DNA of 64,000 nt, from assembly GCA_963773065.1 (NCBI GenBank), contig CAVYZN010000008.1, positions 229,752-293,751 of the forward strand. The letters are read 5' to 3'. Source of the stretch: an uncultured Gammaproteobacteria bacterium. Its GTDB lineage: Bacteria; Pseudomonadota; Gammaproteobacteria; UBA9214. This document shows positions 14,840-62,532 of the stretch, one piece after another. Under the pieces are notes generated by a model, which saw only the letters and a list, made by a program, of their open reading frames with translations, was not told the origin of the DNA and searched no databases. The translations under genes and the position numbers were made by a program. Each line of letters opens with the position of its first letter. Position 1 is the first letter of the stretch.

Positions 14840-14860
14840 AACGGTGTTCAGGGACGGACA

Positions 14861-19965: not shown

Positions 19966-19971
19966 ATCGAT

Positions 19972-21335: not shown

Positions 21336-21408
21336 AATCACATCGAGCGGCAAATATACTCCTGCCTGTCGGCTAGTGCCAGATTCAGCGGGAACTGTCA
21401 TCGAGGGA

Positions 21409-21548: not shown

Positions 21549-21586
21549 AAATCCAGGACGGTTCCTGCGCTATCTATATATTATGA

Positions 21587-22972: not shown

Positions 22973-22981
22973 TCATCATGA

Positions 22982-28802: not shown

Positions 28803-28985
28803 ATGGCTACAAAGAAGAAGGTCGCAGCAAAGAAGAAGGCAGCACCGAAGAAGAAGGTCGCAGCAAAGAAGAAAGCAGCACCGAAGAAGAAGGTCGCAGC
28901 AAAGAAGAAAGCAGCACCGAAAAAGAAAGCCACAGCAAAAAAGAAAGCGGCTGCAAAGAAGAAGACTACCGCCAAGCGCGGATAG
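28803..28985 (+). CDS. Histone H1-like Lys/Ala-rich DNA-binding protein
   Basis: (KKKVAAKKKAAP)x3 encoded by a 36-bp tandem repeat; GGAGG RBS. Confidence 0.85.
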   Translation: MATKKKVAAKKKAAPKKKVAAKKKAAPKKKVAAKKKAAPKKKATAKKKAAAKKKTTAKRG

Positions 28986-29029
28986 TCACGAGGTAATCCG
29001 GAGCGCTGTAATAGCCTCCTGATAGCACC

Positions 29030-35390: not shown

Positions 35391-35464
35391 TGGCTGGGGG
35401 ACTAGGATTCGAACCTAGGTTGACGGAGTCAGAGTCCGTAGTCCTACCACTAGACGATCCCCCA
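35391..35464 (-). tRNA. tRNA-Gln (CTG)
   Basis: TGGGGGATCGTCTAGTGGTAGGACTACGGACT-CTG-ACTCCGTCAACCTAGGTTCGAATCCTAGTCCCCCAGCCA; terminator at 35355-35385. Confidence 0.97.
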
Positions 35465-43322: not shown

Positions 43323-45730
43323 CTGACCTTTACCCACAACAATGACTGGACACAGTGCGTATTGTGTCGTAGAGTTGCGGCATGGTCACGATTGCTGGAC
43401 GGACATTTTCGCCGGACATTCTGTCGCGCATCACCGAGACGGTGAATGCGGAGCCGAACATTTCGCGACGGCAACTGTCGCTGCGCGTGTGCGAGTGGAT
43501 GGAGTGGCGCAACGCGAGCGGCCGACCGCAGGAGATGAGTTGCCGCAAGAGCTTGCTGGAATTGCATCGGCGCGGCGCGGTCAAGTTGCCAGCACTTACG
43601 CGTCGCTACGCCTTCCAGGAGGCGCGGCAAGCGCTGGCATGCCCACCCATCGCCGAGGTGCACTGCACGCTGGCGGAGTTGGGCGAGGTGGAGATCATCC
43701 GCGTCACCTCGAACGCCTTGTCGGCGCTGTGGCGCGGGATGCTCGATGCGCATCATTACTTGAAGGGCGGGCCGCTGTGCGGTGCGCAGTTGCGTTATCT
43801 GGTGCGTAGCAGCCGTTACGGCTGGCTCGGGGGCTTGAGCTACAGCGCGTGTGCGCTTCGCGTGGACTGTCGCGACCGTTGGATCGGTTGGACCGAGGCG
43901 ACACGCCAGCGCAATCACCCGCTGGTAGTGAACAACAGTCGTTTTCTGATTGCGCCGAGCGTCCAGGTGAAGTGTCTGGCATCGTGGGTGCTGGCACGCG
44001 CCCAAGCCCGCTTGGCGCAAGACTGGGAGCAGGTGTATGGGTATGCTCCGGTGCTGCTGGAGACGTATGTGGAGCGCGGCCGTTTTGCCGGAACCTGTTA
44101 CCGTGCGGCGAATTGGACGTGGGTCGGAACCAGCGCAGGGCGCGGCCGGCAAGGCACGGGGGCGAGCATCAAGGACGTGTATGTCCTGCCGCTGTCGCGG
44201 GCTTGGCAGAGCCAATTGTGTCGCGAGGCGGATGGTCAGGTGCGCGTCGCGTCCGCGCCATTGCCACGCGCACCGCGTGACTGGATAGAGGCGGAACTGG
44301 GAGGAGCGAACATGGGCGATGCGCGTTTGACCGCCAGACTGCTGCAGATGACCGGCATGTTCTACGACAAGCCGACGGCGAACATTCCCCAGGCCTGTGG
44401 CTCGGCGATGGCGGCCAAGGCGGCGTACCGGTTTCTGGACAACGAAAACGTGCGGTGGCCGGCGATCCTGACGTCGCATTACGCGGCCACCGAGGCGCGC
44501 GTGCGTGAGGCGCCTCTGGTGCTGGTGGCACAGGACACCACCACACTCAATTACAGCACCCATCCCCATACCGACGGTCTGGGACCGATCGGCACCGACA
44601 GCGAGCAGGTGCGAGGGCTGATGGTGCACGACACGCTGGCGTTCACCCCCGAGGGCACGCCGTTGGGGCTGCTGGACCTGCAATGCTGGGCTCGCACGGG
44701 AATTGGCAGCCGTCATGAGCGCCACAGCAAACCCATCGAGGACAAAGAGAGCTTCAAGTGGGTCGAGAGCTATCAAGCGGTCTCGGCGGTGCAGAAGCGT
44801 TGCCGCAACACCGTACTGGTGGTGATGGCCGATCGCGAGGCGGATATCCACGAAGTGTTCGCCGCGCAGGCCAGGACGGCGCATGGGGCGCAGTTGCTGA
44901 TCCGCGCCGAGCGCTCGCGCAACCGCCAAGTCCTCGGTGATGAAGACACCCATGAGTCGCTGTGGCGGGTGCTGGAGCAACAACCCGTCATCGGCAAGCG
45001 CGAGTTGCTGATCCCGCCGAATGAGAAACGGGCGGCACGTCAGGCACGCTTGGCAGTGCGCGCGGCCGCTGTTATCCTCAAGCCCCCGGCGCGCCGCCCC
45101 CAACTGGCGCCGGTGCCGGTGTGGGCGGTGTTGGCCCAGGAGATCAATCCGCCGGCTGGAGTGGAAGCCCTGGAATGGATGCTGCTCACCAGAGTGGAGG
45201 TCGAGCACAAGGACGACGCGTTCCAACGTCTGACTTGGTATGCGCGCCGCTGGGGCATCGAGGTCTATCACCGTATCCTCAAGAGCGGTTGTCGCGTCGA
45301 GGCGCGGCAACTGGAGAACAGCCATCGTCTGAGCAACTGCCTGGCAATCGATCTCATGGTGGCGTGGCGCATCTTCTATCTGACCCTGCTTGGCGAGCAC
45401 ACCCCCGAGGTGCCCTGCACCGTGTACTTCACCGACTCGGAGTGGCGTGCGTTGATCACCTTCGTGAACAAAACCAAAACGCCGCCCGAGTTGCCGCCAA
45501 ACCTGAATGAAGCCGTGCGATTGCTGGGCAAACTGGGAGGTCATCTCGGACGCAGTGGCGATGGTCATCCGGGCACGGAAGTACTCTGGCGCGGCATGGC
45601 GCGATTGGCCGATATCGAACGCGCCTATGATTCTCTACCATGGGGCTGCGGCTACCTGAAAATCTAACATCAAATTTGCCACCATGCCCTCAATTTCCTT
45701 GTGCTCTGAAAAGATGTGGGTAAAGATCAG
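43323..45730 (+). mobile_element. IS4-family (IS50/Tn5-like) insertion sequence
   Basis: Terminal repeats CTGACCTTTACCCACA / TGTGGGTAAAGATCAG; 10-bp target duplication CTCCATGTAG at 43313-43322 and 45731-45740. Confidence 0.93.
43382..45667 (+). CDS. IS4 transposase with N-terminal DUF4338-like domain
   Basis: VNNSRFLI, LETYVE..RF.GTCYRAANW; then GDARLTARL, QDTT, DREAD, YARRWGIEVYHRILKSGC, LGG...DGHPG. Confidence 0.9.
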   Translation: MVTIAGRTFSPDILSRITETVNAEPNISRRQLSLRVCEWMEWRNASGRPQEMSCRKSLLELHRRGAVKLPALTRRYAFQEARQALACPPIAEVHCTLAELGEVEIIRVTSNALSALWRGMLDAHHYLKGGPLCGAQLRYLVRSSRYGWLGGLSYSACALRVDCRDRWIGWTEATRQRNHPLVVNNSRFLIAPSVQVKCLASWVLARAQARLAQDWEQVYGYAPVLLETYVERGRFAGTCYRAANWTWVGTSAGRGRQGTGASIKDVYVLPLSRAWQSQLCREADGQVRVASAPLPRAPRDWIEAELGGANMGDARLTARLLQMTGMFYDKPTANIPQACGSAMAAKAAYRFLDNENVRWPAILTSHYAATEARVREAPLVLVAQDTTTLNYSTHPHTDGLGPIGTDSEQVRGLMVHDTLAFTPEGTPLGLLDLQCWARTGIGSRHERHSKPIEDKESFKWVESYQAVSAVQKRCRNTVLVVMADREADIHEVFAAQARTAHGAQLLIRAERSRNRQVLGDEDTHESLWRVLEQQPVIGKRELLIPPNEKRAARQARLAVRAAAVILKPPARRPQLAPVPVWAVLAQEINPPAGVEALEWMLLTRVEVEHKDDAFQRLTWYARRWGIEVYHRILKSGCRVEARQLENSHRLSNCLAIDLMVAWRIFYLTLLGEHTPEVPCTVYFTDSEWRALITFVNKTKTPPELPPNLNEAVRLLGKLGGHLGRSGDGHPGTEVLWRGMARLADIERAYDSLPWGCGYLKI

Positions 45731-45885
45731 CTCCATGTAGCGCCTGTCGAAGGTGAACTGACTTCGACCATGAATAGCCTCCGCCCGAGCAGCAAGACAG
45801 CCACCGTATGCCCGGCCTCGTGATAGGCCGTGGACAGCCAGGCGTGGGAATCGGATCGAGGATTTGGCCGGCACATGGTCGTACA

Positions 45886-46699: not shown

Positions 46700-46770
46700 G
46701 GTGGAGTCTCAGTAAATCAAAATTATTAGTCATTCCCAGCCAGAACATCATTTCCATTCTCGTTTGTTAG

Positions 46771-48707
46771 CCTGACTTTCGCTACTCAACCATGCAGCGA
46801 CAGATAAGTGCTTGAAATTTCGAGCGGGGAGCCTCAAAGGTCTGTCCTACATTTGCCAACTTATTTTTGCATCGCCAGCGTGTTCTTCGCGGTAATCCTG
46901 GGCGGGGCCTGTGGCGGCAGTGTCCACTTCAGTTGCGCGAGAACGAGTAGTTGATCGGCTTCGGGCTCGGTGTGGCGGGTGAAGATGAGTTCGCGCCCAT
47001 CGGTGGTGGGGAAGTGCACGTCAAGCATCTGAATGGCAGCGAGTTTGTCGAGTGCTTGCCGGGCGGTAAGTCCGGGTGCTCGCTGTTTGAGTTGGTGACT
47101 CAGAGTGACTTGCACGCAGTACGCGAGGAAGCACACAAAAATGTGCGCTTCGATGCGATCCTCGCGTTGATGGAAGATCGGCCGAATGGCCAATTCGCTT
47201 TTCAGATTCTTGAATGCCGCTTCGACTTCCACCAGTTGCAAATAGAACTGCCACAATTGCGCCGGATCGGTGGCGGTGAGGTTGGAGCGTAGCAGGTAGC
47301 GGCCTTCGCGCTTGCGCACCGTGCGCAGCCTGGCGCGATCCAGCCGAGAGTCGAAATCGGTACGTTGCGTGCGGGTCTGTTTATCCGGCGCCTCGGGCAA
47401 GCGCAGTTTGACCAGACTGACCGCTCGCCCAGCAAGTGCTTGTGCAGCGCCGAGCTTGGTGAGCAGCGTGTAGTAGCGCGGGCGTTGCTGCTTGAGCGCG
47501 TGCAATCGCGCGAGGTAGCGCCGCAGCCGTTGCTGGCGCATGGCGCGCTCTTTGTGCACACGCGCCTGACTCTTCACATAGACGTAGAGTTCATCGTCCT
47601 GCGCCAAGAGCTTTACCTGCACCTGTTCGCGTGCCTGCTGCCAGCCACAGGCGGCAAGATCGGCTTCGAGTCGATTCAGACGCCCTTCGGCGTCCCCACC
47701 AAATACTGGGCACCGCGTTCACGCATCAGCGCCAGGTGCGCCTCCGTGGGAATGCCCCGATCCATCACCCAGACACGGCGCGCCTTGCCGTACAGCGCTT
47801 CAATGCGCTCCAGGAACCGCGGTAATGTCGTCGCGTCCGCCGTGTTGCCCGCCAGCACTTCGTAGGTGAGCGGAAACCCTTCCGGTGTGACAATCAGCGC
47901 GATCACCACTTAAGGCAATCCAGGCGATGATCGCGCGAATACCCGAAGCGGCGCTTGTCGCCCTCGGCAAACGGCGGATCGCTCTCAAAGTACGTGCTCG
48001 TCAAGTCATACAGCAGCACATCGAACGAGGCGCCGAACAAATCCTGCAGCGATGCTGCAAAAACACCTGCAGCGCCCATCGCGCTGCATTCAAACCACTC
48101 CCGATGCAGACGCCACTCGCTGCCCAGATAAATCAGTCGATACGCCACCAGCACCATCAACACCTGATGCCGATCCGTGCCCTCGCGCGATTCCACCAGC
48201 CGAGGTCGCCAGAATCATCCAACTACAGTTGCCGCCACAACTGCACAAACGCCCAACACGCACCCCACTGCCGTGGTCGATGCAACCGGAATTCACCCAG
48301 TCGCACCTGGCACCGCACGCTGCGGCATGCGGGGGCACACTGACATCGTCCGCAAACAACGCCAACGTGCGCGTTTGCGCGTGGTCATCCAGCACTTCAA
48401 TCTGCTTCAGCCACGCGGCGCGCTGCGAGTCGTTGATCTCACCCAGATACAAGATGTGTCGATCAACCGTTCCGCGCGCAACCCGTCGCTTCTCCGCAAT
48501 GCTGAAGTAGCGATGCTCCTTGCCGTCCTTGAATCGTCGATGACACTTCAGGTACATGCAGAAAGACTACCTGCTCTCGCGCAGCTTGCAAGCACCAAGG
48601 TCTGTACCCAACCAAAAATTAAAATCACAAGACCTTACAGGTCAAGCATTTACGCTCGCGATCACACCGAATATCAGCAAAATCCTGCTTGAGTTGCGAA
48701 AGTCAGG
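46771..48707 (-). mobile_element. IS1634-family element with fragmented transposase (46861-48557)
   Basis: Terminal repeats CCTGACTTTCGC.ACTCAA / TTGAGTTGCGAAAGTCAGG with flanking TTAG; YDLTSTYFE, GYSRD, VMDRGIP, VEAAFKNLK, RIEAHIF. Confidence 0.88.
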
Positions 48708-48848
48708 TTAGACCAAGCCTAACAAAATCGCGGAGTCATAGGCATTGTGGAAACTACGTACAAAAGACTATCTGAGGTGATAGTCGCGAAGGTTTATATA
48801 GAGTCGGAAGTACGCATTCAGGTAGCTGCACCACCCTGTATGCTGCTA

Positions 48849-48923
48849 AACGGCAAGGTTCGGCCACAACTTGCCCTTACCGGATGACTGGCGAACGGCA
48901 GGAATGCCGCAACTTCGGACATT
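48849..48923. repeat. Pair of 30-bp dyad sites, 45-bp period
   Basis: AACGGC-N18-GCCCTT and AACGGC-N18-GACATT. Confidence 0.65.
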
Positions 48924-49119
48924 TTTAGCAAACAAAAACGGCGACCCGCAGGCCGCCGCCTTTGTTATCGCAAGTGGTGAATGAAGACAATTTTCTCAAG
49001 TATTTCCCGTTCTCGGGATCGGGGGATTCGATCTGCCCGAAGAAACGTGTAAGCTTGCGGCCCCAACGCTAGGCGATTGTTTTCGCCATCAGTAACATAA
49101 CCAAGGAGACGGAAACATC

Positions 49120-49974
49120 ATGAGACGACTTATTGGCCTGCTGGTTCTGACGACGCTGGTCTGGCAACCGGCGATGGCAGGCAAGACCCCGAATACGCTT
49201 GCAAAGATCAAGAGCAGCAAGACGATCACCATTGCGTACGACACTGCTGGCGCGCCCTTCAGCTTTACCAAAGGCGGCGAACCCGCCGGCTACTCCATCG
49301 ATCTTTGCCAGGAAATCGTGACAAGCCTGGAAAAACAACTCGGCAATGACGATATCAAGATAGAATGGCGGGCCGGCAATACCCCTGAGCGCCTGAGCAT
49401 GGTGGAAAAGGGAGATGCGGATATCGATTGCGGCACAACCTCGATTACTCTGGGACGCCAGGAAAAAGTCGATTTCAGCAACCCGGTCTTCGTGGAATCC
49501 GGTGGGGTGCTAGTGCTCGAAAAGTCCGGCATTCATGGGCTAATCAGTCTCGCGGACAAAAAGGTGGCAGTCCTGTCCGGAACCACCACCGAGCAGCGCC
49601 TGCTTAAAGCGCTGGAACGCAAGCACATCAAGGCGGAGCTGGTGAAGATCAAGGATGCAAAAGAGGGAATGGCAGCCCTGGAATCCGGAAAGGCCGACGC
49701 CTATGCCGGCGACCGACTGGTTTTGATCGACCAGGTCACCGAATCTAAGGATCCGAGCCGTTACGCGATGTTGAAGGAAATGTTTTCCGTGGACCCCTAC
49801 GGTTTCGCCCTACCGCGCGGTGACGCCGATTTCCGCCTGGCGGTCAATCGCGCACTTGCCGACGTCTACCGTGGTGCCGCACTGGACCAGATTTTCGTGC
49901 ACTGGTTCGGTCCGGACGCGCAACCCTCAGAAGTACTGCAGGCCCTTTATCTGATTAACGCTTACCCTGATTGA
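49120..49974 (+). CDS. Amino-acid ABC substrate-binding protein (GltI-like), no permease adjacent
   Basis: TLAKIK, PFSF, GYSIDLC, VDFS.P.F, GTTTE, FRLAVNRALA. Confidence 0.9.
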   Translation: MRRLIGLLVLTTLVWQPAMAGKTPNTLAKIKSSKTITIAYDTAGAPFSFTKGGEPAGYSIDLCQEIVTSLEKQLGNDDIKIEWRAGNTPERLSMVEKGDADIDCGTTSITLGRQEKVDFSNPVFVESGGVLVLEKSGIHGLISLADKKVAVLSGTTTEQRLLKALERKHIKAELVKIKDAKEGMAALESGKADAYAGDRLVLIDQVTESKDPSRYAMLKEMFSVDPYGFALPRGDADFRLAVNRALADVYRGAALDQIFVHWFGPDAQPSEVLQALYLINAYPD

Positions 49975-50359
49975 GCGCAAAGAAACAACAAGGGCCGGTG
50001 GCAAATGTCAGCGACTATCACTTGCCACCGGCCTTTCCTTTATGCGTAACGACGGATCACCTGTCGAGCAGTTTATCCAGATGTTCCAGATCATTGACGA
50101 CCTTCCAGAGTCCGTCACCCGAATACGGATGTCCGGGATCCGCAGCCTTCCAGACATTTAACCTATGACGCACACCCTCTCCCTAGTCCTTCGAACGACG
50201 ATCATCACCCCAGTCCACCGTAGCTTCGCACTTGGCTCCGTGCTCATCGATATGCGCCATCTGTCACGCGTATGTTGATACCAGCAACCGAGAATGTCGA
50301 GGCCGCCCACCACAAGAGTTCAGTGGTAATTGGCCCCTGAGTCTCCTATGATTCCAGGC

Positions 50360-50974
50360 ATGCTTTTCAATGTCTATGTCATGCCGCTGGTGCTTTACCT
50401 TGCCGCCAAGATCGAGCCCGCATTGTTATCCGCGGATGGGGAACAGCATGCCGGTGCCAGCCATCAACAGGCGGAAGAGCGGGTAAAGGCCATCCAGGAG
50501 AGCCTGACACAGACCCTCGGGGTGGAAGTGCGATGGCCGGACGAGGGCGGTGTTGCGTTCACCGAGAGCACGGAGCGACGCATGCTTCACGCGCTCCGCT
50601 CGCTTGCCGCGTGGCATGAATATCCCATAGAGAAAGAGTTTGTATTGCTTGAGGACCCCAGAGACCACCTGAGCCTGATGAAGGTCTACCGCGGTGAGCA
50701 GACGCGCTATCCGCACCTGATGCGACACTCGGACAACCGGGGGTTCTGGTTGCCGGTTGACTATCCCCAACCCGCCGCATCCAGCGAGGCTGCCTGGTGG
50801 CTTATCGGCAGTTGCCAGGGCCTGGGTCGTGAACTTGAGGGAATCACCCCGTTGATCGAAGCCGTGCCCCCGGGGGCTGATCGTGAGTACCTGGAGAAGG
50901 CGCATGCCATCTTCGTTCGCGCGGTGTCAACAGCAAACGAACACGAACTTCCTGTCGTCATAGAAGCAACCTGA
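50360..50974 (+). CDS. Hypothetical protein
   Basis: Open frame of about 204 aa with YPHLMRHSDNRGFWLPVDY motif. Confidence 0.65.
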   Translation: MLFNVYVMPLVLYLAAKIEPALLSADGEQHAGASHQQAEERVKAIQESLTQTLGVEVRWPDEGGVAFTESTERRMLHALRSLAAWHEYPIEKEFVLLEDPRDHLSLMKVYRGEQTRYPHLMRHSDNRGFWLPVDYPQPAASSEAAWWLIGSCQGLGRELEGITPLIEAVPPGADREYLEKAHAIFVRAVSTANEHELPVVIEAT

Positions 50975-51107
50975 ATCTTCGCGAGAAGTTCCTTCGTCGG
51001 GTCCGTCGCTGCGCTCCTTTGGTCCAGTTACGCGTGAACTACCCGTAGGCCCAGGGAAAAAGGGTGTTTAATCTTATCGTATAGACGCCCCGTGTAAACT
51101 ATACCCC

Positions 51108-52154
51108 TCACACCGAAATCTTAAAGCGGCTGAAAGACAGCACCAGCAGCACGGCTAACGCCGCTGGAAACAGCACCCTTGAGACAGAGTTCAGGCGCTG
51201 CGCCAACTGCTTCCGCTCCCTCTCCCACAGCGCAGTGGTCACCACCGCCTGCGCCAGCGCTGCGAACACCAGCACGGTGGCGCCGATGGTGAAAACGTCG
51301 AGTTCGGTCAGGTAGGGAATCGGTGGAAGGCTGGAACCTAACGCCAGACGAAATGCGATCAGGGTGAGCATAGAGGTGGCCGATAGGCCGGTACGCGGCG
51401 CGATGTTCTGGGGGCTGAGCCAGAACACTGCCCAGGACATGAATACCACAAACGACATGGGCACGATCAGTTTCCACACGTAGTAGCCCGAACGCCGCTT
51501 GGCCGGAAACAGGATTTTCAGTTGCGTAATCGAACGGCCCGGCTGCACCCGGTACTCGCCGGTCGATGCTTTAGGGCTGCCGATCGACCAGTTGGGGCTG
51601 GAGAGATGCTCCGCTACCGCGAAGAGCTGCTCATCCACAACCAGTTTCAGGTCCTCAGGCCTGAAACGCGCCACGAGTGTGACGGGCAGCTCCTGGCTAT
51701 CGAAGGGAAAGCGGCTCAGATCGAGCGGCAGAGAATAGGTCCCATAAAAGCGCTGCACATAGCGCACGGAGCCGTCGGCTTGTACTTCCACCACATCGTT
51801 CATTTGGCGCTGCACGCTGCGCTGGTTCGTCACTAATACACCCGGATTCCAGATATCCCCTGCCGGCACCGTGCAGGGCGCATCCCGTCCGTTGACCAGC
51901 CGCGCATCCTTCCACTCGTAGCGCAGGAAGATATCGGCGACGTAACTCTGGTCGGCGTCATCGATCTTGGGAATATCTATCAGATAGACACCGACCCGGA
52001 CCTCGGTGGCACCTTGCCCAACACCGGGCCGGGAATGACGCACCGAGTCGGGAAACTCGCAGCCAGGTCCCGGGCTGCTCACAGTCTGACCTTGCACCAG
52101 TACCGAAGAACTTATCATGAGCAGCGCGAACAGTATTCGTGAGGTTTTCAACAT
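51108..52154 (-). CDS. Prokaryotic pentameric ligand-gated ion channel (GLIC/ELIC-like)
   Basis: W.D.RL, IWNP, DGSVRY, LDLSRFPFDSQ Pro-loop, YYVWKLIVP, M2 GLSATSMLTLIAF, LPPIPYLT.LD; four hydrophobic helices. Confidence 0.92.
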   Translation of the reverse strand: MLKTSRILFALLMISSSVLVQGQTVSSPGPGCEFPDSVRHSRPGVGQGATEVRVGVYLIDIPKIDDADQSYVADIFLRYEWKDARLVNGRDAPCTVPAGDIWNPGVLVTNQRSVQRQMNDVVEVQADGSVRYVQRFYGTYSLPLDLSRFPFDSQELPVTLVARFRPEDLKLVVDEQLFAVAEHLSSPNWSIGSPKASTGEYRVQPGRSITQLKILFPAKRRSGYYVWKLIVPMSFVVFMSWAVFWLSPQNIAPRTGLSATSMLTLIAFRLALGSSLPPIPYLTELDVFTIGATVLVFAALAQAVVTTALWERERKQLAQRLNSVSRVLFPAALAVLLVLSFSRFKISV

Positions 52155-52383
52155 ACTGCATTTCTGCCTGGTTAGCTGGCCAACTAGTTTCCTTCGATTT
52201 GATTGAGTCAAAGGCAGATTCTTCACGAACACGACCAAAAGCATGCACTTTATACAGCACAGGGTTTTACAGCAAGCTGCCTTAACATCGTAAAGTGCCG
52301 CACAGAATATCGTTATTGGAATTCTACTTGGTGGGCCAATCAAATATTTCTGCCAATAACCACTTAACAGAGTCCGATCTGGG

Positions 52384-52561
52384 AACGGCCGCTTATAGTA
52401 CATTCTTGCCGTACCCAGGGATATCCGGAACGGCAAGTTAGGGTCGACTCACGCCGTTTAACGAAATCTTATATAAGCGTCTCATGTAGGACAGGGATCG
52501 GCCAACTCCTGACCTACACGGACGACCAGCGGAGGGCAACTGTGCAGCAACTTCGGACATT
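52384..52561. repeat. Dyad-site cluster plus ~105-bp block repeated at 55605-55712
   Basis: Units at 52384, 52429 and 52532; TTTAACGAAATCTTATATAAGCGTCTC is identical in both blocks. Confidence 0.85.
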
Positions 52562-52606
52562 AAGGCGCACTACGTTAGATGGTCACTATCGGGTCTGACG
52601 ACTAAT

Positions 52607-53536
52607 CTATTTTTTGTCAGGCAGCCTTGGATCTCGATTATCCTTTAAGCAGCCAATAGTCACCTTGTGATACCAGTCGACCATGGTTAGCAGGTCCTGT
52701 GCGAGTTCAAAAGCTTCATTTACTCGCAAGTTGAGTAGCCAGCGCTCGCTCTTACCAGTCTGCTGCACGCTAATAAAGCGTTTACCTCGCAATGTTCTCA
52801 GTGCCGCGTCATATTTCTTCACTTCGATGTTTCTTTCGGCATCCATTTCAGGCGCGTCATTGGGTGTCGCGAGTTCCTTTGCAACCGCCTTTGCAATTTT
52901 CGCCTGATACGGTTCCGCCCATTTATGCCATTTGTTCCACTCGGGAGGAGCAAGCGACGGAATCACAAATATCGTTCTTTCGGCATCTCGGGTAAATACG
53001 ACCTGCCCAGGGTCCTTTGGAACGTCTGGCAGCGAGCCGAGCACTCTGCCTAATTCCTTAGCAGCACCAGCTCCGTGAACAATCATGACCCGTGGACGAA
53101 TATAGCGAAGCAAGTTTTCAAAGATCTCAGTTCCTCGCGCGGCCCCGCCCTTGTTGCCCGGGCGTTTCAGGTCTTCACTCATCGGCGTCGAGTAACAGAT
53201 GACGTTCGTTTCGAGAACGTTGCATACACCCTGGCGTTCGAGAACCTTACGAAGTCCATCAATATTCTTACGCGTATGTGAACTCCTATGGTTTGTCATC
53301 TCATCATATAGGCTACGACAAGACTCCCCATTACGATTGAACAAGGCATCCAGGTGGCGCTTGTGCGTGAGGCGCAAAACATCATATGTCATAGCCTGAT
53401 TCGCTCCAACGATGAAGACATCTGCCGACATCGGATCTTTCAAATCCGTCATCCATGGACGCGGGTACTGACCATCGAGGGGTTTGGTCAGTTCCTCAAT
53501 CAACAATTCAAATTTGTTTGTACGTTTGCTGTTCAT
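52607..53536 (-). CDS. Hypothetical protein, uracil-DNA glycosylase-like superfamily
   Basis: VFIVGANQA, LETNVICYSTP, IRPRVMIVHGAGAAKEL, IPSLAP follow the UDG motif order; lower GC. Confidence 0.6.
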   Translation of the reverse strand: MNSKRTNKFELLIEELTKPLDGQYPRPWMTDLKDPMSADVFIVGANQAMTYDVLRLTHKRHLDALFNRNGESCRSLYDEMTNHRSSHTRKNIDGLRKVLERQGVCNVLETNVICYSTPMSEDLKRPGNKGGAARGTEIFENLLRYIRPRVMIVHGAGAAKELGRVLGSLPDVPKDPGQVVFTRDAERTIFVIPSLAPPEWNKWHKWAEPYQAKIAKAVAKELATPNDAPEMDAERNIEVKKYDAALRTLRGKRFISVQQTGKSERWLLNLRVNEAFELAQDLLTMVDWYHKVTIGCLKDNRDPRLPDKK

Positions 53537-53632
53537 TTGGCCCGGGTAGTTCTGGTAATTGACGTTGGTATCACGTGGTCATAGCCCTCTTCCGACTGTA
53601 TACGGACTGACAGGACCCGGCAACCTGAGAAG

Positions 53633-53707
53633 GATGTCTGACTTCAGTACAAACACGACATGAAGCCCAAGACGCTGGACGTCTGGGTAGGGTCGATTCA
53701 GGTCCTT
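53633..53707. repeat. Pair of 30-bp dyad sites, 45-bp period
   Basis: TTCAGTACAAACACGACATGAAGCCC is shared with 55560; GTAGGGTCGA core in the second unit. Confidence 0.8.
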
Positions 53708-54285
53708 CAGGATTTGCTTATCCAGCAATCAGACCCCACCCGCCGTGGAAAGCATGGGGAGGGAGGGAGACTGCCGGACGACATTGCCGGACCCAGTGCA
53801 TACGTCAGGTTTCCGGATCGTCAGTCTTCCACGGAGCAGCACAGTCGGCATCAGCGCGGCCTGGGACCTCGGACTTCGGCGCGAAGTCGTACCCCCTCCA
53901 AGCAGCGACCCGACTCGGCCTGCTTGGTCCTGGTACGGCCTGGATATGGTGGCGGTCATGTTGATTTGGCCTCACGCCGGTGACGAGCCAATAAAAGTCG
54001 TCCTTGCGCAGTCAGAAAACCTGCGAAGAAGCCTTATGCATTTTATCGGCGCGACAGATTCAAATACGCCCGTACCGGTGGGGTCCCCATGATGCTGGTT
54101 TGTATTCCGCCTGAGACCCAAGTGTTGGCTGTATTCATTCCGAGCAGCGAGACGCCGTACACCGCCGTCGGGCCGCTTGCCTGACACGCATTCTTCATCT
54201 TCTCAGCGGCAGCGATTATCGTGATATAGTTAAACAATAAAAATGCTTCGCGGTAAACAACAATAAGTCAAGAAAGTCACGAGAT

Positions 54286-55420
54286 GTGTACTCCATGTCC
54301 AAAAGGCATTATGTAGAGGGACCCACGGTGTTGTTGGGCGTCGTGGTGGCCGTTACCGTAGCCGCGGTGGCACTGACCTACTATATCGGGCGCCACGTCA
54401 TTGAACAAAGTCGTATGTTTGTCGTGAATTCACCGCCAGTGCAACAGGGACCGTCCGCGACTTATGCCGGTGAGAGCCGCGAGTCAGCCAGCCCGCAAGG
54501 TTCCCAGCCGGAGTTGCAGGGACAGAATCATCCCGGCGAGACGTCTGCCCAAGAGGCGGACGGAGAGGTTGCTCGGGTTGGGGTCGCGATACACGGGAAG
54601 ACCGGCATCAAAATTACGAGGCGGGTATCGCAACAGTCCACGCTCGTATCTTCGACAGCAGTCGAGGAATCGCCAGCCGTAGGTGGACAAGGTGACAGGG
54701 GGTCGGGTAAGCAGTGCAGCCTGCTGGGCATGATGCTGAACCGGGTGTCCAGGACAGCGCACAGTCTGTCACTTCCGTGGCGATGAAAAATCGCCCGGTG
54801 CCACGGCCGGACACATTGAGTTCAGAGGGTCAGATCCAGGTCGCTGAACCCGCGCGTACAGCGGAATCAGCACGACCTGCCGTCAACACGGCGATGAGGG
54901 ACGGTTCCGGCCCTGCAGCACGCGATGTAACGCCCGCTACTCGCGATTCACGTCAGCCGCTCTCTAGCGGGCAAGCGGTGGTATCAGCGGTTCAGTCAAT
55001 GAGAGAATCGCCAAGCTGCTGGAGCAGGCAGGAGAAGCCCTGAGAGAGGACCGCCTAATGATCCCGGCGCATCGCAGCGCTTACAGTTATTATCAGCAAG
55101 TGCTGTCACAGGAGCCGGGTAACGCTGAGGCTCACGACGGATTGAAGAAAATTGTGGAACGTTATGTCACGCTGACAAGACATGCTATTCAGCGCGAAGA
55201 TAAATTCAAGGCAAACCAGTATATAACCCGCGCTCTGCGTGTCCGGCCCGGTGACAGACGCCTGCTGGCGATGAAAGACAGCATCAACACGATGTTAGCC
55301 AGCACGCGGTCCGAACCACCGGCCAGGCGGCTGAAGTCCCCTCCGCAGGAAGGGGAAACACCGAGGAATATTTTTCAGCGGCTGAGGGACTTTTATATCC
55401 TCCACGTTCCTTTGAATTGA
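54286..55420 (+). CDS. Membrane-anchored hypothetical protein with C-terminal TPR-like domain (fragmented)
   Basis: N-terminal hydrophobic helix, low-complexity linker, SAYSYYQQVLSQEPGNAEAHDGL. Confidence 0.55.
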
Positions 55421-55549
55421 CATGGGATGCAGTTCGATGCTTCTTCAGTGCTACAGGCCAAGCATTTTATGACTGAACCGCCGGCATTACACCGCGTGGC
55501 CTTCAGAAGGCGTAGATCAGCCGCGCAGACTGTCAATGGAAGGACGGTA

Positions 55550-55725
55550 AACGTCTTGTTTCAGTACAAACACGACATGAAGCCCGAAATGCTGGATGTC
55601 CGAGTAGGGTCGACTCCCGTCCTTTAACGAAATCTTATATAAGCGTCTCGTGTAGGACCGGGATCGGCCCAATTCATGACCTACAGATGCGACCCGCGAA
55701 GGGCAGCAATGCAAAACCGGTCATT
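55550..55725. repeat. Dyad-site cluster, mosaic of the 53633 and 52429 clusters
   Basis: Units at 55550, 55595 and 55699. Confidence 0.85.
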
Positions 55726-55729
55726 CGTA

Positions 55730-55985
55730 ATCGGGATAGGAAGAAGCCTTACGGCTCCTCCCTCTCACACCACCGGACGTACGGATCACGTATCCGGCGG
55801 GTCGATGAATTGAATTCCTACCGTGGCACAAGGCTGGGTAGTCCCATGCTGTTGAAGAAGCGCAAGGGTAGCGCCATCACCAATGCCCCCGTCTTCGACA
55901 GCCGCCACGGGCCGTGGGTCGCCGACTTGCTGGTGTTCCACGCTTCACGCACTGACACACCGCGTTGGCGCAGTTCCCGGTACCC
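55730..55985 (-). mobile_element. 3' remnant of a group IIC intron
   Basis: ORF end GYRELRQRGVSVREAWNTSKS..HGPWRLS...FFNSMGLPSL*; domain V CCGCCGGATACGTGATCCGTACGTCCGGTGG; domain VI ending CCTATCCCGAT. Confidence 0.88.
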
Positions 55986-56054
55986 TGTGACCCCAGCGGG
56001 TCAAGTAGTCAAACGGCCATCTAGGGGCGGCTAACCAGCCATTTCGGCGGACCC

Positions 56055-56267
56055 TTACGGGTTCGACGCCTTTTCGGCCTGCTGCAGTCTGTCCTGCTCG
56101 GTCCGCATCGCTGCGTTGAGCTGACTCCGGACTTGGTCCGTCAACTGTTGGGCCTGCTTTGCCTCTTGGGCATTGAGCGCGGCCTCGGTGGCCGACGTAC
56201 TTGCCAAGTCGGCCGCGCAGCCGGCCAAAGCGACGGTCAGAAACACCGATGATATGAGTCGGTTCAT
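56055..56267 (-). CDS. Small lipoprotein
   Basis: GGAG RBS; MNRLISSVFLTVALAGC lipobox. Confidence 0.75.
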   Translation of the reverse strand: MNRLISSVFLTVALAGCAADLASTSATEAALNAQEAKQAQQLTDQVRSQLNAAMRTEQDRLQQAEKASNP

Positions 56268-56448
56268 GACATTGCTCTCCGTTTAATTCGGCGGTCACAG
56301 TCGACCGGCCCGGCCGCCATTCCCACCCAAGGGCGATCAAAGGAAAGTCCAAGCCCTGTTGGTAGAGTATCGGCCGAATAAACGTCCTTTTTACTATCTG
56401 CCAACAGATCATCCACGGGTAAGGAAGTCCCCTATCCCCTCCCACTAA

Positions 56449-57222
56449 CCCGCAGCCGTCACCGATTCAGCGAATGGGCGGGAATCGGGTTGATCTGCGA
56501 CGAGGGTGAGGGGCTGAAGGGCGCGGTGGACGTCGTTTCGGGACGAGCGTGCACCATTTTCTCTATCGCCGCCAAGGATCATGGTCCTTGGCGGGGGTTT
56601 TTTCGGCGTTCTGCCAGGCCCAGGACGTGGCTTATCCTCAGCGCGTACTGATCGGAGCGACGCTGTACTCGGCGAAACCTGGTGGGTCTGTCCAGAGGCA
56701 GTCCACAGGGGATGGCAACGCAGGTTCGCCAGGATCTGCGCAAAGGCGTTCGCATACGGATACGCCTCAGAGAACGACAACCAGAGCTTGCGCACCGTGA
56801 TCTTCAGGCGAGCACCGATCTTCAGCAGCTTCAGCCGGATCGTGGTCGACTGCGCGCGCGCGAGCTTGGTGCCTTGCTACCCGAGACGACGCAGAGCGTG
56901 CATCAGCACATAGGCAAACGAGGCGAAGTACAGTCGCAGTTGATTCGCCCGCAGCGTCGCGGCACTGGTGCGGTCAGCGAACAGCCCCAGCTGATGCTCC
57001 TTGATCCGGTTCTCCATCTCTCCGCGCGTGCAGTAGAGCTGCTCGTACAGGCGCTGAGCGCCGGCGCGCTGAAGCAGCAGATTCGTCACCACGAAGCGCG
57101 GATTGGTACCCTTGGGCAGATACTCCGCCTTGCCGATCACTCGATGCCGGCGCGACCAGGATTTGCGCGTGCGATAGTGAAAGTCGCGGTAGCGGCGCGC
57201 GGGCTCGCCCGTGCGCTGATGC
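56449..57222 (-). pseudogene. IS1380-family transposase 3' fragment
   Basis: KAEY...GTNPRFVVTNL, Y..RGEMENRIKE, ANQLRL, TIRLKLLKIGA, WLSFSEAYP. Confidence 0.85.
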
Positions 57223-57703
57223 CCTACACGGGCGACCAGCGAAGGACAACTATGCAGTTCCGGTCGTTCCCTTTTCGCAGTGCTTTTTGATATATCCCGG
57301 GCTAACAGATGCTACCTTCGCACGAGCCACGCCCCAGCCGGCACATGATGTCTGAGTGAGATGCAGTCCGAGTATCTGGAAAGCAACCACGGCATGTACA
57401 ACCGCGTTCCCGCTAGCTGCAGAGATGTCCGAGGGGTGGAACACCGAGTTACTAAGGGTGCCTGCATAATCAGAGACTTAACCATACAACGTACTCCTAT
57501 GTGCCCGGTGATATACAGGGCCAGCAATGATGTGTCATTCTGATTTATTAGTATCATTAGGTTTTACGGGTATCACTGATGTTAAATCAGAATGTCAACA
57601 TTTCGCATAGTGCTGGTCGATCAATCGTTGTATCCCGAAAGGAACCAAGCCGTTTATCATTCTAGTCCGATGTCGTACCCACATTCAGGGCTAGCGCTGT
57701 CCC

Positions 57704-59484
57704 ATGAGTAATTCGGTTCCTTCCTGCCACCCCCGCAACCGGGTCGTATCGGCCGCCCGCAGGCAGCCGACCAGATCGGTTGGACGCGCTGGCTTCCAGG
57801 ACTCAAATCTTGCGCGGGTACGAGTTGGATTGGCTTCATCATGACATCGTGGCCGGGCTGGTGTTGACCACGATGCTGGTGCCCGTGGGCATCGCCTACG
57901 CGGTGGCATCGGGTGTCGGGCATCTATGGCCTCTATGCAACGATCATCCCGCTGCTGGCTTATGCACTGTTCGGTCCCAGTCGCATTCTGGTGCTGGGTC
58001 CCGACTCTGCGCTGGTCGCGGTCATCCTCGCCGTAGTCTTGCAGCAGTCTGGCGGCGATCCCCTGCGTGCCATCGCCCTGGCCGGCATGATGGCCATCGT
58101 GTCCGGGTTGGTGTGCATCGCGGCTGGCCTGGCGCGCCTCGGTTTCATCACCGAACTGCTTTCCAAGCCGATCCGCTACGGCTACATGAACGGCATTGCG
58201 CTGACGGTATTAATCAGCCAACTGCCCAAGCTATTCGGCTTTTCGATGAGAGCAGCGGACCGCTGAGAAACTTATGGGCCATCGCCTCTGCGGTGCTGGA
58301 TGGAATGGCCAACTGGACAACGTTCACGGTCGGCGCAGGCACCCTGGCGGTGATTTTACTGCTCAAGGGCAGCAAGCGCGTGCCGGGTATCCTGATCGCC
58401 GTGGTCGGGGCGACAGTCGCTGTCGGCGCGCTGGATCTTGCTGCGCATGCAGGCGTGTCGGTCCTCGGGTCGTCCCGCAAGGTCTGCCTGCATTCGCTAT
58501 CCCGTGGATCACCACCGCCGATATCGTCCCCGTGCTGATCGGCGGCTGCGCCGTCGCGCTTGTTTCGTTCGCCGACACCAGCGTGCTCTCGCGTGTCTAT
58601 GCGGCGCGGACCCGTAGCTATGTCGACCCAAACCAGGAGATGGTGGGGCTCGGCGTTGCCAACCTGGCTGCCGGATTTTTTCAGGGCTTTCCGATCAGCA
58701 GCAGTTCGTCGCGCACGCCTGTGGCCGAGGCCGCAGGCGCCAGAACCCGGTGACTGGAGTGGTCGGCGCGCTCGCTGTTGCCTTGCTACTGGTGGTGGCG
58801 CCAGATCTGCTGCGGAACTTACCTACCAGCGCACTGGCCGGTGTTGTGATCGCTTCGGCCATGGGGTTGTTTGAATTCGCCGACCTGCGGCGGATCTACC
58901 GCATCCAGCGCTGGGAGTTCTGGCTGTCGGTTGTCTGTACGGTCGGCGTGGCCGTGTTCGGGGCGATTCCGGGTATCGGCCTGGCGATCGTGATTGCCGT
59001 CATCGAATTTCTGTGGGATGGCTGGCGCCCGTACTCCGCGGTGCTGGGTCGTGCCGAAGGCGTCAGGGGCTACCACGACATCACGCGTCATCCCGACGCG
59101 CGCCTCATCCCCGGCCTGGTCCTGTTTCGCTGGGATGCACCCCTGTTTTTCGCCAACGCCAAGCTGTTTCATAACCGAGTGCTGGACGCGCTGGCCACAT
59201 CGCCCACGCCGGTGCGCTGGCTGGTCGTAGCGGCGGAACCGGTGACCAGCGTCAACGTCACCTCCGCCGACATGCTGGATGAGCTGGACGAGATCTTGCA
59301 CGCGGCGGGCATCGAATTGTGCTTTGCCGAGATGAAGGATCCCGTCAAGGACAAGCTGAAGCGATTCGGACTTTTTGCGCGGGCTGGCGATGAGATTTTC
59401 TTTCCAACCATTGGTGCGGCCGTCAGCAGCTATCTCAAGACCCACACGGTGGAGTGGGAGGACTGGGAGGACCGGAGTCCCTGA
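57704..59484 (+). CDS. SulP-family anion transporter with STAS domain (several frameshifts; start uncertain)
   Basis: DIVAGL..VPVGIAYA, GLYA..YALFGPSR, NQEMVGLG.AN, SSSSRT, APLFFANA. Confidence 0.9.
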
Positions 59485-59695
59485 AGCAAAGTCACGCTGA
59501 ATAAACGCGGCTATCCGTCTTCGCTTTTACGGCCACGGTAGCTCACCTCAGACGTTATCCGTGCACATAAGGCAGTAGCCGATAGTTGAAGTCCATAACA
59601 GCATTCCGGAAACGTTCGGAATTGCTTGCGTAGTTGCCCTTCGCAGGACGTCCGTTTAGGACAGGAGTTGGCCGAAACTTGCCATAAGCTTTGAG

Positions 59696-60855: not shown

Positions 60856-61194
60856 GTCCTGCGGGACGCGGACATCCTGCGGCTAAATAGCATTCCTGTC
60901 ATCCACTGCGATTAGGGAAATGACCGGAGTTGGCCGAACCATGTCATTTGATCCCGTCGTGGGCGGTCCAGATACCGTAACGCGTACTTCCGACCAAAAC
61001 CAGCCTGTCAGATTTCCAAAATAGGCCAACGCCAACTTGGCCAAGAGCGTAAGCGATCCGGTGAAAACGTGTGTTGGATTATGCTGCGGCATCCGAATCA
61101 CCAATGTAAAGACCGTACTTCGTCCTTCGATTATTTTACTGGCCACCGTTCGCTTCGGATTTTATACTGGGGTTCCCTGCTTTCTGTCGCCGGA

Positions 61195-62124: not shown

Positions 62125-62532
62125 TGTCTCCTGCTGCGATTATTTTGGGCAACCTGGATTCAGTACAATTGTCTGCTATTGGCCGTACCCGGATATTTAG
62201 CCAGCTCTTCTATTCGCATCGGCGAGGCGACGGAAGCCGACCCATTAGCGTCATCGCGCGATTACGGTTGTGCTTTCCGTTGTGATTACCCGCTTTGCCG
62301 CGGCACGGGCGAGTGGTGCATCCCAAGCCCCCCGGGCAGGCACACCAGCGTTTTTCCCTATCGCCGTGCGTGTGGTCTTGCCACCGTTGCGCTTCACTTG
62401 GCAGCGCTGATGGGGTTGTGTTCGCAGAGCGCGAACATTCGATCACCGCATCGCGATCGCGGTCTCTGCCCCGGTAGGCCGGACAAGTTTTAATTTATTT
62501 AATTTCAATTGGTTGAAATTTCTTCCAGGGAA

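What the first reader, a model, noticed from the sequence alone, without database searches (positions are those of the whole stretch)
48849..59686. 30-bp dyad sites, paired at an exact 45-bp period, punctuate the island cargo genes: candidate undescribed cassette/recombination system
Seen: about 13 degenerate units of form RAYGKC-N18-GHCVTK, all intergenic and all on the island side, at 48849, 48894, 50128, 52384, 52429, 52532, 53633, 53678, 55550, 55595 and 59657, with 27-bp variants at 55699 and 57242. Four tandem pairs have the same 30+15-bp spacing, and three second units share TAGGGTCGA. Clusters lie between the binding protein, hypothetical/pLGIC, UDG-like, TPR-like, SulP and hydrolase genes. 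The 55550 cluster is a mosaic: its left part matches 53633 and its right part matches 52429. The IS1380 fragment stops exactly at a cluster (CCTACACGGGCGACCAGCGAAGGACAAC). They do not fit attC, dif or CRISPR repeats. Inference: recombinase sites that assemble and shuffle single-gene modules, functionally like integrons or pdif modules. No recombinase is in the window.
Basis: partly seen in the sequence, partly recalled or inferred. Interest (0 to 1): 0.82.

Follow-up and report, generated by a model that had tools for sequence, protein, structure and literature searches.

The report
Clustered mosaic palindromic intergenic repeats
The 30-bp "dyads" are pieces of a longer, previously undescribed palindromic repeat of the REP/BIME kind that sits between genes in the variable parts of the chromosomes of one uncultured gammaproteobacterial family, and nothing found here shows that it is a recombinase site for gene cassettes.

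Summary
The repeats are real, but the unit is wrong. The 30-bp motifs and their 45-bp period are internal features of one mosaic element. It has an ~80-nt arm, and two inverted arms around CTTATATAAG make a 150-180-nt element.

- **Copies:** the window holds nine copies or fragments, three of them beyond the reported range. The genome holds 24 copies in 10 clusters.
- **Spread:** 29 of 53 other genomes of the same order carry it, at up to 15 matches each.
- **Not attC:** the genome has no integron integrase. Relatives that have one use classical attC sites, and those are unrelated to this element.
- **No recombinase:** no recombinase or Y1 transposase gene lies beside the copies.
- **Insertion hot spot:** an IS3-family IS, a 136-bp MITE and its IS5-like parent all inserted at the same GGGTCG motif. 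These insertions explain the one "precise" breakpoint I found.
- **Arrangement:** copies often, but not always, sit where gene order differs between relatives. Neighbouring copies are co-oriented in 30 of 31 pairs.

Best reading: a new low-copy, clustered REP/BIME/REPIN-like family that acts as an insertion and rearrangement hot spot (confidence 0.6). A dedicated cassette-recombination system is not excluded (about 0.12), but no positive evidence supports it.

The parts
48843..48923 (+).
   Evidence: nhmmer model positions 82-157. 71% identical to 52492-52561. Related copy at C14:35164.
50129..50196 (+). In C16 and C26 the same module follows directly on a GGGTCGA motif.
   Evidence: blastn 84% to C16:75135-75068 and 80% to C26:59500-59565. 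Sequences.
52394..52561 (+).
   Evidence: nhmmer model 1-157, 116-134 bits. 86% match in G017 and 78% in G003.
53643..53721 (+).
   Evidence: Model 2-80. 83% identical to 55553-55624.
55550..55727 (+).
   Evidence: nhmmer 107-127 bits. Aligned with full copies of G001, G002 and G017.
57217..57268 (+).
   Evidence: nhmmer E 6.5e-4 and arm alignment. IS homology to C21 ends at 57233 while the C21 copy runs on.
59611..59686 (-).
   Evidence: Model 96-169 / 89-154. Homology of the next gene to G002 and G003 starts at 59691.
60890..60949 (-). Lone arm, outside the reported range
   Evidence: Model 87-146, E 5.7e-6. Homology to G003:C441 ends at 60880.
62158..62266 (-). Core with parts of both arms, outside the reported range. 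Paralogue of the copy at C21:51365-51433.
   Evidence: Alignment of junctions.
56445..57233 (-). Truncated IS1380-family insertion sequence (context, not part of the repeat)
   Evidence: NF033539 positions 293-378 of 419, 74.3 bits. 90% identical to C21:35489-36274.
55730..55802 (-). Group II intron domain V/VI-like fragment that abuts the right end of the element (context)
   Evidence: RF00029, 33.3 bits, below the gathering score of 40, E 0.0021.

Best explanation
The motifs belong to a non-coding, non-autonomous mosaic repeat of the REP/BIME/REPIN kind, specific to one uncultured gammaproteobacterial family.

**Anatomy (shown).**
- The basic piece is an ~80-nt arm. It starts with GTAG and a weak hairpin whose loop reads YCGGCC (GGGTCGA on the other strand).
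- A second related half-site lies 45 nt further on, and the arm ends in ..CGGACATT.
- Two arms in inverted orientation around CTTATATAAG make the 150-180-nt element.
- Lone arms and other combinations also occur.

**Behaviour (shown).**
- Copies are intergenic, clustered and co-oriented.
- They are hot spots for the insertion of other mobile elements.
- They are frequent at places where gene order differs between relatives.

**Mechanism (inferred).**
- Copies were spread in trans, most likely as single-stranded DNA by a Y1 (RAYT/IS200-like) transposase. That would account for the GTAG hairpin, the inverted doublet and the strand bias.
- The copies promote rearrangement passively, by homologous recombination between copies, breakage of the palindrome, and attraction of IS elements. 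A dedicated cassette recombinase is not needed.
- I give the Y1 step itself only about 0.3.
For: **Motifs and spacing.**
- GTAG in 29 of 43 arms.
- YCGGCC loop in 47 of 59 arms.
- 45-nt spacing in 25 of 34 arms.

**Mosaic make-up, as in BIMEs.** Full, left-only, right-only and C-module combinations all occur.

**Lineage-wide but low copy.**
- 14 of 24 family genomes, and 0 of 16 genomes of other families.
- 29 of 53 genomes of the order, in 5 of 6 genera.

**Target for mobile elements, as described for REPs.**
- An IS3-family IS (HTH_21 + rve) and a 136-bp MITE sit in the GGGTCG motif of the C21 copy.
- The same MITE sits at the same position in C16.
- Its IS5-like parent (DDE_Tnp_1 + DUF772) is at the same junction in G017.
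- PMC1525189 (passages read) states that IS1397, ISKpn1 and IS621 insert into REPs. It also says that REPs occur at recombination junctions and that strain-specific loops of E. coli are associated with BIMEs.

**No recombinase nearby, and ordinary neighbours.**
- No intI over cut-off in the genome (best 81.8 bits against 265).
- No Y1 gene within 5 kb of a copy.
- Among the ORFs scanned in two G017 arrays, the only mobile-element gene is the IS5-like transposase; the rest are ordinary chromosomal genes.

**Strand bias.**
- 30 of 31 neighbouring copies are co-oriented.
- 79 of 115 neighbouring ORFs lie on the strand opposite to the model orientation (crude ORF calls).
Against: - **Copy number.** It is far below that usually given for REPs: more than 100 per genome in the abstract of PMC2817692, against 24 here and at most 15 blast matches in any relative.
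- **Clustering.** It is extreme for a dispersed repeat. 18 of 24 copies have a neighbour within 5 kb, against 1.38 expected (maximum 8 in 2000 random placements).
- **No RAYT signature.** No Y1 gene is flanked by the elements in this genome. None lies in the known arrays of five relatives.
- **Weak hairpins.**
  - Folding z-scores are -1.05 and -2.19.
  - There is no covariation in hairpin 1 (543 of 1000 shuffles reach the observed value).
  - Hairpin 2 shows only a modest excess (69.7% against 65.0%, 0 of 1000). That could reflect subfamilies rather than independent compensation.
- **No sign of transposition.** By eye I saw no target-site duplication at the ends of full copies. The terminal 15-mer finds no parent IS in the genome.
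- **Association with intI.** Element presence goes with intI presence across 53 genomes (odds ratio 5.4, p 0.006). It is not significant among genomes at least 90% complete (p 0.20), and element presence also goes with assembly size.
Confidence: 0.6

Rival explanations
1. The elements are sites of a dedicated, still unidentified site-specific recombinase or strand-specific transposase. It inserts and exchanges one- or two-gene modules, as integron attC sites or pdif sites do.
For: - **Arrays.** One or two ORFs separated by elements, spaced 1-4 kb, occur in G001, G002, G003, G017 and the window.
- **Co-orientation.** 30 of 31 neighbouring copies point the same way.
- **Edges of homology.** Several homology blocks shared with relatives end at or within about 10 nt of an element: 55718, 59691, 60880 and the SBP block in G001.
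- **A shared module.** A 656-nt module that is 89% identical between two genera lies next to an element in both.
- **Lone arms.** They begin close to the centre of the palindrome (model starts 82-102).
- **intI.** Element and intI presence are associated (odds ratio 5.4).
Against: - **No recombinase.** None lies next to any array examined. One integrase flanked by arms in G001:C151 has close relatives in only 3 other genomes of 31.
- **Gene direction.** Genes in the arrays point both ways.
- **Housekeeping genes.** Some lie between elements in G017.
- **Breaks without elements.** Some synteny breaks lack an element.
- **No fixed crossover point.** None was found. The one exact junction is due to IS and MITE insertion.
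- **intI loci.** Integron integrase loci in relatives carry classical attC sites, not these elements.
Confidence: 0.12
2. The element is kept by selection as a cis-acting signal. Either it is part of transcripts, for example a 3'-end stabiliser or terminator-associated structure as shown for some REPs, or it is a binding platform for a nucleoid or regulatory protein. On this reading it is not mobile DNA.
For: - The central ~35 nt and the arm motifs are conserved across five genera, with 86-96% identical stretches in other genera.
- The orientation follows the local direction of genes: 79 of 115 neighbouring ORFs.
- Many copies lie next to terminator-like hairpins.
- Hairpin 2 shows some covariation.
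Against: - No Rfam family matches.
- Folding is weak, and hairpin 1 shows no covariation.
- Presence is patchy (29 of 53 genomes), with many truncated copies, which does not suggest a needed signal.
- Copies are not tied to particular genes.
Confidence: 0.15
3. The copies are leftovers of attachment sites (attL/attR) from serial integration of small integrative elements by a tyrosine integrase that targets the element.
For: In G001:C151 a 371-aa tyrosine integrase gene lies between arms of the element.
Against: - Close relatives of that integrase (57-61% identical) occur in only 3 other genomes of 31, G043 and G019 plus a fragment in G002. G017 and G003, which have many copies, lack one.
- None is present in the window's genome (best hit 30% identical).
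Confidence: 0.05

Closest known systems
REP / BIME / REPIN elements of Enterobacteria and Pseudomonas (PMC2817692, PMC3333891, PMC3116915 and PMC3337134: abstracts seen; PMC1525189: passages read)
   Same: - Extragenic imperfect palindromes with a 5' GTAG.
- Units at regular spacing and in alternating orientation, which build mosaic composites.
- Inverted doublets with a spacer, as in REPINs.
- Specific targets for IS elements of the IS3 and other families.
- Found at recombination junctions and at strain-specific regions.
   Different: - The arm is longer (~80 nt) and folds weakly.
- There are 24 copies per genome instead of hundreds.
- Copies are strongly clustered and co-oriented.
- No RAYT gene is flanked by the copies.
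MITEs with long palindromic bodies (ERIC, Correia and similar; recalled, not from a call)
   Same: A size of 150-180 bp, imperfect terminal inverted repeats (AATGTCCG.. / ..CGGACATT), non-coding, intergenic, with truncated copies.
   Different: No target-site duplication was seen and no parent IS with these ends was found in the genome. Co-orientation of neighbours is not expected for DDE-type MITEs.
Integron attC sites and clusters of attC sites without integrase (CALINs; definition recalled)
   Same: Imperfect palindromes of similar length between one- or two-gene units, co-oriented in arrays. Many genomes of the same order do have integron integrases.
   Different: - No RYYYAAC / GTTRRRY boxes in the family: one chance pair overlaps a copy, at 52456-52580, among 6 such pairs in the window, and no other copy is overlapped.
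- No hit of a model built from the relatives' own attC sites.
- Not next to intI.
- Genes point both ways.
pdif modules (XerC/D sites flanking gene modules on Acinetobacter plasmids; recalled)
   Same: Short sites bracketing small gene modules that recur in different contexts.
   Different: The element has no 28-bp XerC-spacer-XerD architecture. The 11-nt XerD-arm motif, with up to 1 mismatch, has 12 hits in the genome and none lies in an element. The elements are chromosomal and much longer.

Membership tests
REP/BIME/REPIN | Extragenic imperfect palindrome with a conserved 5' GTAG | tested here: met
   GTAG in 29 of 43 arms that cover those columns. All window copies lie outside the supported genes.
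REP/BIME/REPIN | High abundance (usually more than 100 copies per genome, abstract of PMC2817692) | tested here: not met
   24 copies at E <= 1e-3 in the genome. 0-15 blast matches in 53 other genomes of the order.
REP/BIME/REPIN | Units regularly spaced and in alternating orientation, forming mosaic composites or inverted doublets | tested here: met
   Two inverted arms around CTTATATAAG. Half-sites 45 nt apart in 25 of 34 arms. Several combinations of parts occur.
REP/BIME/REPIN | A cognate RAYT (Y1 transposase) gene flanked by the repeats | tested here: not met
   10 Y1_Tnp matches in the genome, none within 5 kb of a copy (nearest about 8.7 kb). None in the known arrays of 5 relatives.
REP/BIME/REPIN | Stable stem-loop supported by compensatory changes | tested here: inconclusive
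   Hairpin 1 pairs in 59.5% of cells, equal to shuffles. Hairpin 2 pairs in 69.7% against 65.0% (0 of 1000 shuffles reach it). Folding z-scores are -1.05 and -2.19.
REP/BIME/REPIN | Specific target of insertion sequences | tested here: met
   An IS3-family IS, a 136-bp MITE (two loci) and its IS5-like parent (G017) all lie at the GGGTCG motif.
Integron attC | R'' RYYYAAC and R' GTTRRRY boxes at the two ends | tested here: not met
   A strict scan of the window gives 6 pairs. Only one (52456-52580) overlaps a copy, and no other copy is overlapped by a pair.
Integron attC | Similarity to attC sites of integrons in the same lineage | tested here: not met
   nhmmer with two attC alignments from G017 gives 0 hits in the genome. 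Model R1 (sequence only; RNAalifold found no pairs) gives 0 hits in the window and none at an element in the arrays searched.
Integron attC | Array adjoins intI and attI | tested here: not met
   No intI over cut-off in the genome. No element lies within the fetched stretch next to intI in G017, G002 and G019: about 20 kb on the array side in G017, less in the others.
dif / pdif | 28-bp site: XerC arm, 6-bp spacer, conserved XerD arm | tested here: not met
   The XerD-arm motif (up to 1 mismatch) has 12 hits in the genome, none inside an element.
MITE (DDE type) | Terminal inverted repeats, target-site duplication, and a parent IS with the same ends | tested here: inconclusive
   Imperfect terminal inverted repeats of 8-9 nt are seen by eye. 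No duplication was seen. The terminal 15-mer (up to 2 mismatches) finds 3 element copies and one unrelated site, and no IS.
CRISPR array | Identical 25-40-bp repeats with spacers of similar length | tested here: not met
   Copies are 1-4 kb apart, degenerate and separated by genes.

The most novel reading that the evidence does not exclude
The element is the site of an undescribed strand-specific recombination or transposition system. It adds and exchanges one- or two-gene modules in chromosomal arrays and runs in parallel to the classical integrons of the same bacterial family. The enzyme is encoded elsewhere in the genome, or only in some members of the population. The points this rests on are the co-orientation of 30 of 31 neighbours, the arrays in several genera, homology blocks that end at the element, and the association with intI-bearing genomes.
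Probability: 0.12. Interest if true: 0.8.

Novelty: new variant of a known kind. Interest (0 to 1): 0.4.

Why it matters
- **Annotation.** The element is an undescribed repeat family in a poorly known, uncultured soil and sediment lineage. It breaks short-read assemblies, since many copies lie at contig ends in relatives, and it marks the variable parts of these genomes. A model of it would improve annotation of these metagenome-assembled genomes.
- **Comparison with classical REPs.** Its low copy number, tight clustering and near-perfect co-orientation differ from classical REPs. That makes it a useful case for asking how such repeats spread and why they gather at rearrangement points.
- **If the cassette reading were true.** It would be a second gene-capture system beside integrons. 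The present evidence does not show that.

Tried and rejected
- **Rfam.** Nothing in the region at gathering scores. At E up to 5, only a sub-threshold group II intron fragment and chance miRNA-like hits.
- **attC structure model.** RNAalifold found no pairs in the attC alignment, so model R1 scores sequence only.
- **Palindrome tests.**
  - A fixed-offset pairing of the two arms was invalid, because the arms differ by indels.
  - Pairwise alignment of own against foreign arms showed no difference (0.48 against 0.50, Wilcoxon p 0.88). The alignments were erratic, so I draw no conclusion from them.
- **Orientation against GC skew.** With 8 copies in 7 regions the result was mixed and has no power.
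- **Public runs.**
  - No RNA holder is listed, and all 20 holders are kept as contigs.
  - Laying the contigs of 4 runs showed no joint between elements. The long 'skips' have sides of only 20-21 letters and do not end in elements. One apparent joint, 52504 to 48902, is a relative's copy of the element. This gives no verdict on circles or excision.
- **Breakpoint mapping.** Only 4 usable pairs were found among 91 copies, too few to map breakpoints.
- **G017 array in its own genus.** DNA similarity was too low and the pieces lie on different contigs.
- **dif.** The XerD-arm motif did not reveal the genome's own dif site.
- **Central TTATATAA.** The idea that it is flanked by 14-bp inverted repeats, like a tyrosine-recombinase core, holds only for the symmetrised consensus and one subfamily. 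It does not hold for the window's copies.
- **Supplements.** Supplementary files of papers were not consulted. The additional files of PMC1525189, which list IS-in-REP cases, were not seen.

Full report
**Setting.** The window is the last 64 kb of contig C8 of a 3.84-Mb, 33-contig genome.
- Core genes (COQ7, trpC, trpD) run to about 42.5 kb.
- Then come a multi-copy ORF that fuses a DruA-like domain to Tn5-type transposase domains (43382-45667) and an IS1634-family IS (46767-48709).
- A stretch of lower G+C follows, with a solute-binding protein, a 214-aa unknown, a pentameric ligand-gated channel and a UDG-like protein. It also holds TPR-like ORFs, a small lipoprotein, a truncated IS1380, a frameshifted SulP/STAS gene and a beta-lactamase-fold hydrolase.
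- Records that share the repeat are titled as metagenome-assembled genomes of uncultured Gammaproteobacteria, Ectothiorhodospiraceae and Thiogranum.

**The observation.**
- Eight of the 11 listed 30-bp units match exactly, two miss by one letter and two by four.
- TAGGGTCGA occurs three times, as stated.
- So the motifs are there and are more than chance. The excess exists because these stretches are copies of one another.

**What the unit really is.**
- blastn and iterative nhmmer join the clusters into one family.
- The stretch CAGTACAAACACGACATGAAG (53633, 55550) is the outer left extension. The stretch ..GCAGCAACTTCGGACATT (48894, 52532) is the outer right end.
- A full element, best seen at 55550-55727 and 52394-52561, is two related arms in inverted orientation around CTTATATAAG. 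The symmetrised consensus is close to a 157-nt palindrome.
- Arms also occur alone (48843-48923, 59611-59686, 60890-60949), as does a left part (53643-53721).
- A further 'C' module (50129-50196) follows GGGTCGA in C16 and C26.
- In 61 arms from several genomes:
  - GTAG stands in 29 of 43 arms.
  - The loop YCGGCC stands in 47 of 59.
  - The two half-sites are 45 nt apart in 25 of 34.
- The 'exact 45-bp period' is thus one inherited feature, not four independent ones.

**Structure.**
- The dyads are weak. Hairpin 1 pairs no better than shuffled partners (59.5% in both). Hairpin 2 shows a modest excess (69.7% against 65.0%, 0 of 1000). Hairpin 3 shows none.
- As single-stranded DNA the two full copies fold with z-scores of -1.05 and -2.19.
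- My attempts to test whether the two arms of one copy co-vary gave no usable result.

**Distribution.**
- The genome has 24 copies in 10 regions. 18 of 24 have another copy within 5 kb, against 1.38 expected (maximum 8 in 2000 random placements). G+C around copies averages 0.577, against 0.603 for random windows.
- The window holds nine copies or fragments, three of them beyond the reported range.
- The element is in 14 of 24 other genomes of the family and in 0 of 16 genomes of other families of the class.
- It is in 29 of 53 other genomes of the order, in 5 of 6 genera, with 0-15 matches each.
- Arrays with 1-4 kb spacing occur in G001, G002, G003 and G017.
- Using a model built from five full-length copies only, 30 of 31 neighbouring copies within 10 kb have the same orientation, among 64 copies with a strand difference of at least 10 bits.
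- With a crude ORF caller, 79 of 115 neighbouring ORFs lie on the strand opposite to the model orientation. The orientation therefore follows local gene direction, or replication direction. GC skew could not settle which.

**Is it an integron-like site?**
- The genome has no integron integrase: the best TIGR02249 score is 81.8 bits against a cut-off of 265, and those hits are the Xer proteins.
- Five relatives rich in the element do have one, at 314-482 bits and some with internal stops. So do 25 of 54 genomes of the order.
- Next to intI in G017 lie at least a dozen classical attC sites (..ATAACG.. 60-90 nt ..TTGTTAT..).
- These are unrelated to the element:
  - nhmmer with the element model finds nothing in the fetched stretches next to intI in G017, G019 and G002.
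  - The attC alignments find nothing in the window's genome.
  - The attC model finds nothing in the window or at any element in the arrays searched.
  - The RYYYAAC/GTTRRRY boxes are absent, but for one chance pair.
- Element and intI presence are associated across 53 genomes (20/9 against 7/17, odds ratio 5.4, p 0.006). This is not significant among genomes at least 90% complete (p 0.20). Element presence also goes with assembly size (3.13 against 2.53 Mb, p 0.0008), and the genomes are not independent.

**Other enzymes.**
- Ten Y1_Tnp matches exist in the genome, but none lies within 5 kb of a copy. In five relatives none lies in a known array.
- A tyrosine integrase flanked by arms in G001:C151 has close relatives in only three other genomes of 31.
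- ORFs in two G017 arrays are ordinary chromosomal genes plus one IS5-like transposase. They include ispH, ornithine carbamoyltransferase, FKBP, a class I tRNA synthetase, a Na/Pi cotransporter, SLT and YkuD.

**Breakpoints.**
- Several homology blocks shared with relatives or with other contigs end at or near elements:
  - 55718, next to the end of the full element.
  - 59691 and 60880, next to lone arms.
  - 62240, inside a copy.
  - 57233, where the IS1380 fragment meets an arm fragment.
  - The 954-bp SBP block, 91.5% identical to G001, where it is followed at once by an element and has different neighbours.
- The exact junction at 62240 has a simple cause. The paralogous copy on C21 carries two insertions in its GGGTCG motif:
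  - a 136-bp MITE with a 4-bp duplication, and
  - a 1.27-kb IS3-family IS, with an ORF carrying HTH_21 and rve.
- The same MITE sits at the same position in C16. Its IS5-like parent abuts GGGTCG in G017.
- The motif is therefore an insertion hot spot. This is what is described for REPs and IS1397, ISKpn1 and IS621 (PMC1525189, passages read).
- Other breaks have no element: upstream of the 214-aa gene in G003, and around the SulP gene in G020.
- Downstream of a conserved gene on C6, three genomes differ and only this genome has an arm there.
- A systematic search for in-register flank homology among 91 copies gave only 4 pairs, too few to map a crossover point.
- One of those pairs is a 656-nt module that is 89% identical between two genera and lies beside an element in both.

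**Population data.** Only assembled contigs of public runs were on hand. They show the empty site of the IS1634-family IS, but no joint between elements, so they give no verdict on excision.

**Conclusion.**
- The features fit a REP/BIME/REPIN-like mosaic repeat:
  - extragenic position;
  - a GTAG hairpin;
  - inverted doublets;
  - mosaic composition;
  - a role as an IS target;
  - a place at rearrangement points.
- It departs from the classical families in four ways:
  - low copy number;
  - tight clustering;
  - near-perfect co-orientation;
  - no adjacent RAYT gene.
- I therefore file it as a new variant of a known kind.
- I take the spread to be in trans and probably single-strand specific (inferred). 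I take the link with variable gene modules to be passive: homologous recombination between copies, fragility of the palindrome, and attraction of IS elements.
The copies are not evenly spread, they do coincide with some synteny breaks, and no known family matched. But it has no positive evidence of its own.

Noticed in passing
window 8486-8629, 14807-14843, 19827-19969, 21409-21552, 22834-22976: A second, unrelated repeat family: inverted pairs of CCGCAGAGACGC-type motifs about 140 nt apart. The 12-mer with up to 1 mismatch has 139 hits in the genome, so this is probably the genome's high-copy REP-like family.
   Followed up: partly
window 46767-48709 (-): An IS1634-family insertion sequence, with the transposase split over frames. 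There are 3 further copies in the genome (82-99% identical). Contigs of runs X1 and X4 join 46765 to 48707, which is the empty site.
   Followed up: partly
window 43382-45667 (+): A 761-aa ORF joining a DruA-like (Druantia) domain to Tn5-type transposase DNA-binding and dimerisation domains. The part of it that the search covered (45000-45732) has 97% identical copies on C28 and C11.
   Followed up: no
window 55730-55802 (-): A group II intron domain V/VI-like fragment (RF00029, 33.3 bits, below the gathering score of 40) that ends at the right end of the full element. In run X4 three contigs reach 55728 from different left flanks.
   Followed up: no
window 57737-59515: A SulP/STAS transporter gene broken into three frames. 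It is 87% identical over 1.8 kb to a gene of another genus (G020), where no element lies within about 3 kb.
   Followed up: partly
G000 C16:75171-75306 and C21:51434-51569; L035:10446-11882: A 136-bp MITE with ends CAGGCTGTGTAAAAACTC and a 4-bp duplication (GACC), inserted in the GGGTCG motif of two element copies. A full IS5-like IS with the same end sits at the same junction in G017.
   Followed up: yes
L033 (G017:C2:78000-97999), L027, L043: Classical chromosomal integrons in relatives: intI (some with internal stops) with arrays of canonical attC sites. 25 of 54 genomes of the order score over the intI cut-off, and the window's genome does not.
   Followed up: partly
window 28794-28991: An 18-nt tandem repeat (8 overlapping copies of a 72-nt unit), AAGAAGAAGGTCGCAGCA-like. 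By my own reading of the DNA it would code a lysine/alanine-rich repeat; no translation was run.
   Followed up: no
window 26924-27104, 21136-21339, 35391-35464: 6S RNA, a tandem glycine riboswitch and tRNA-Gln(CTG), all over Rfam or ARAGORN thresholds.
   Followed up: no
window 51108-52155 (-): A pentameric ligand-gated ion channel homologue (Neur_chan_LBD and Neur_chan_memb). The listed ORF runs on to 52436, but by eye the start is the ATG near 52155, so the element at 52394-52561 is intergenic.
   Followed up: partly
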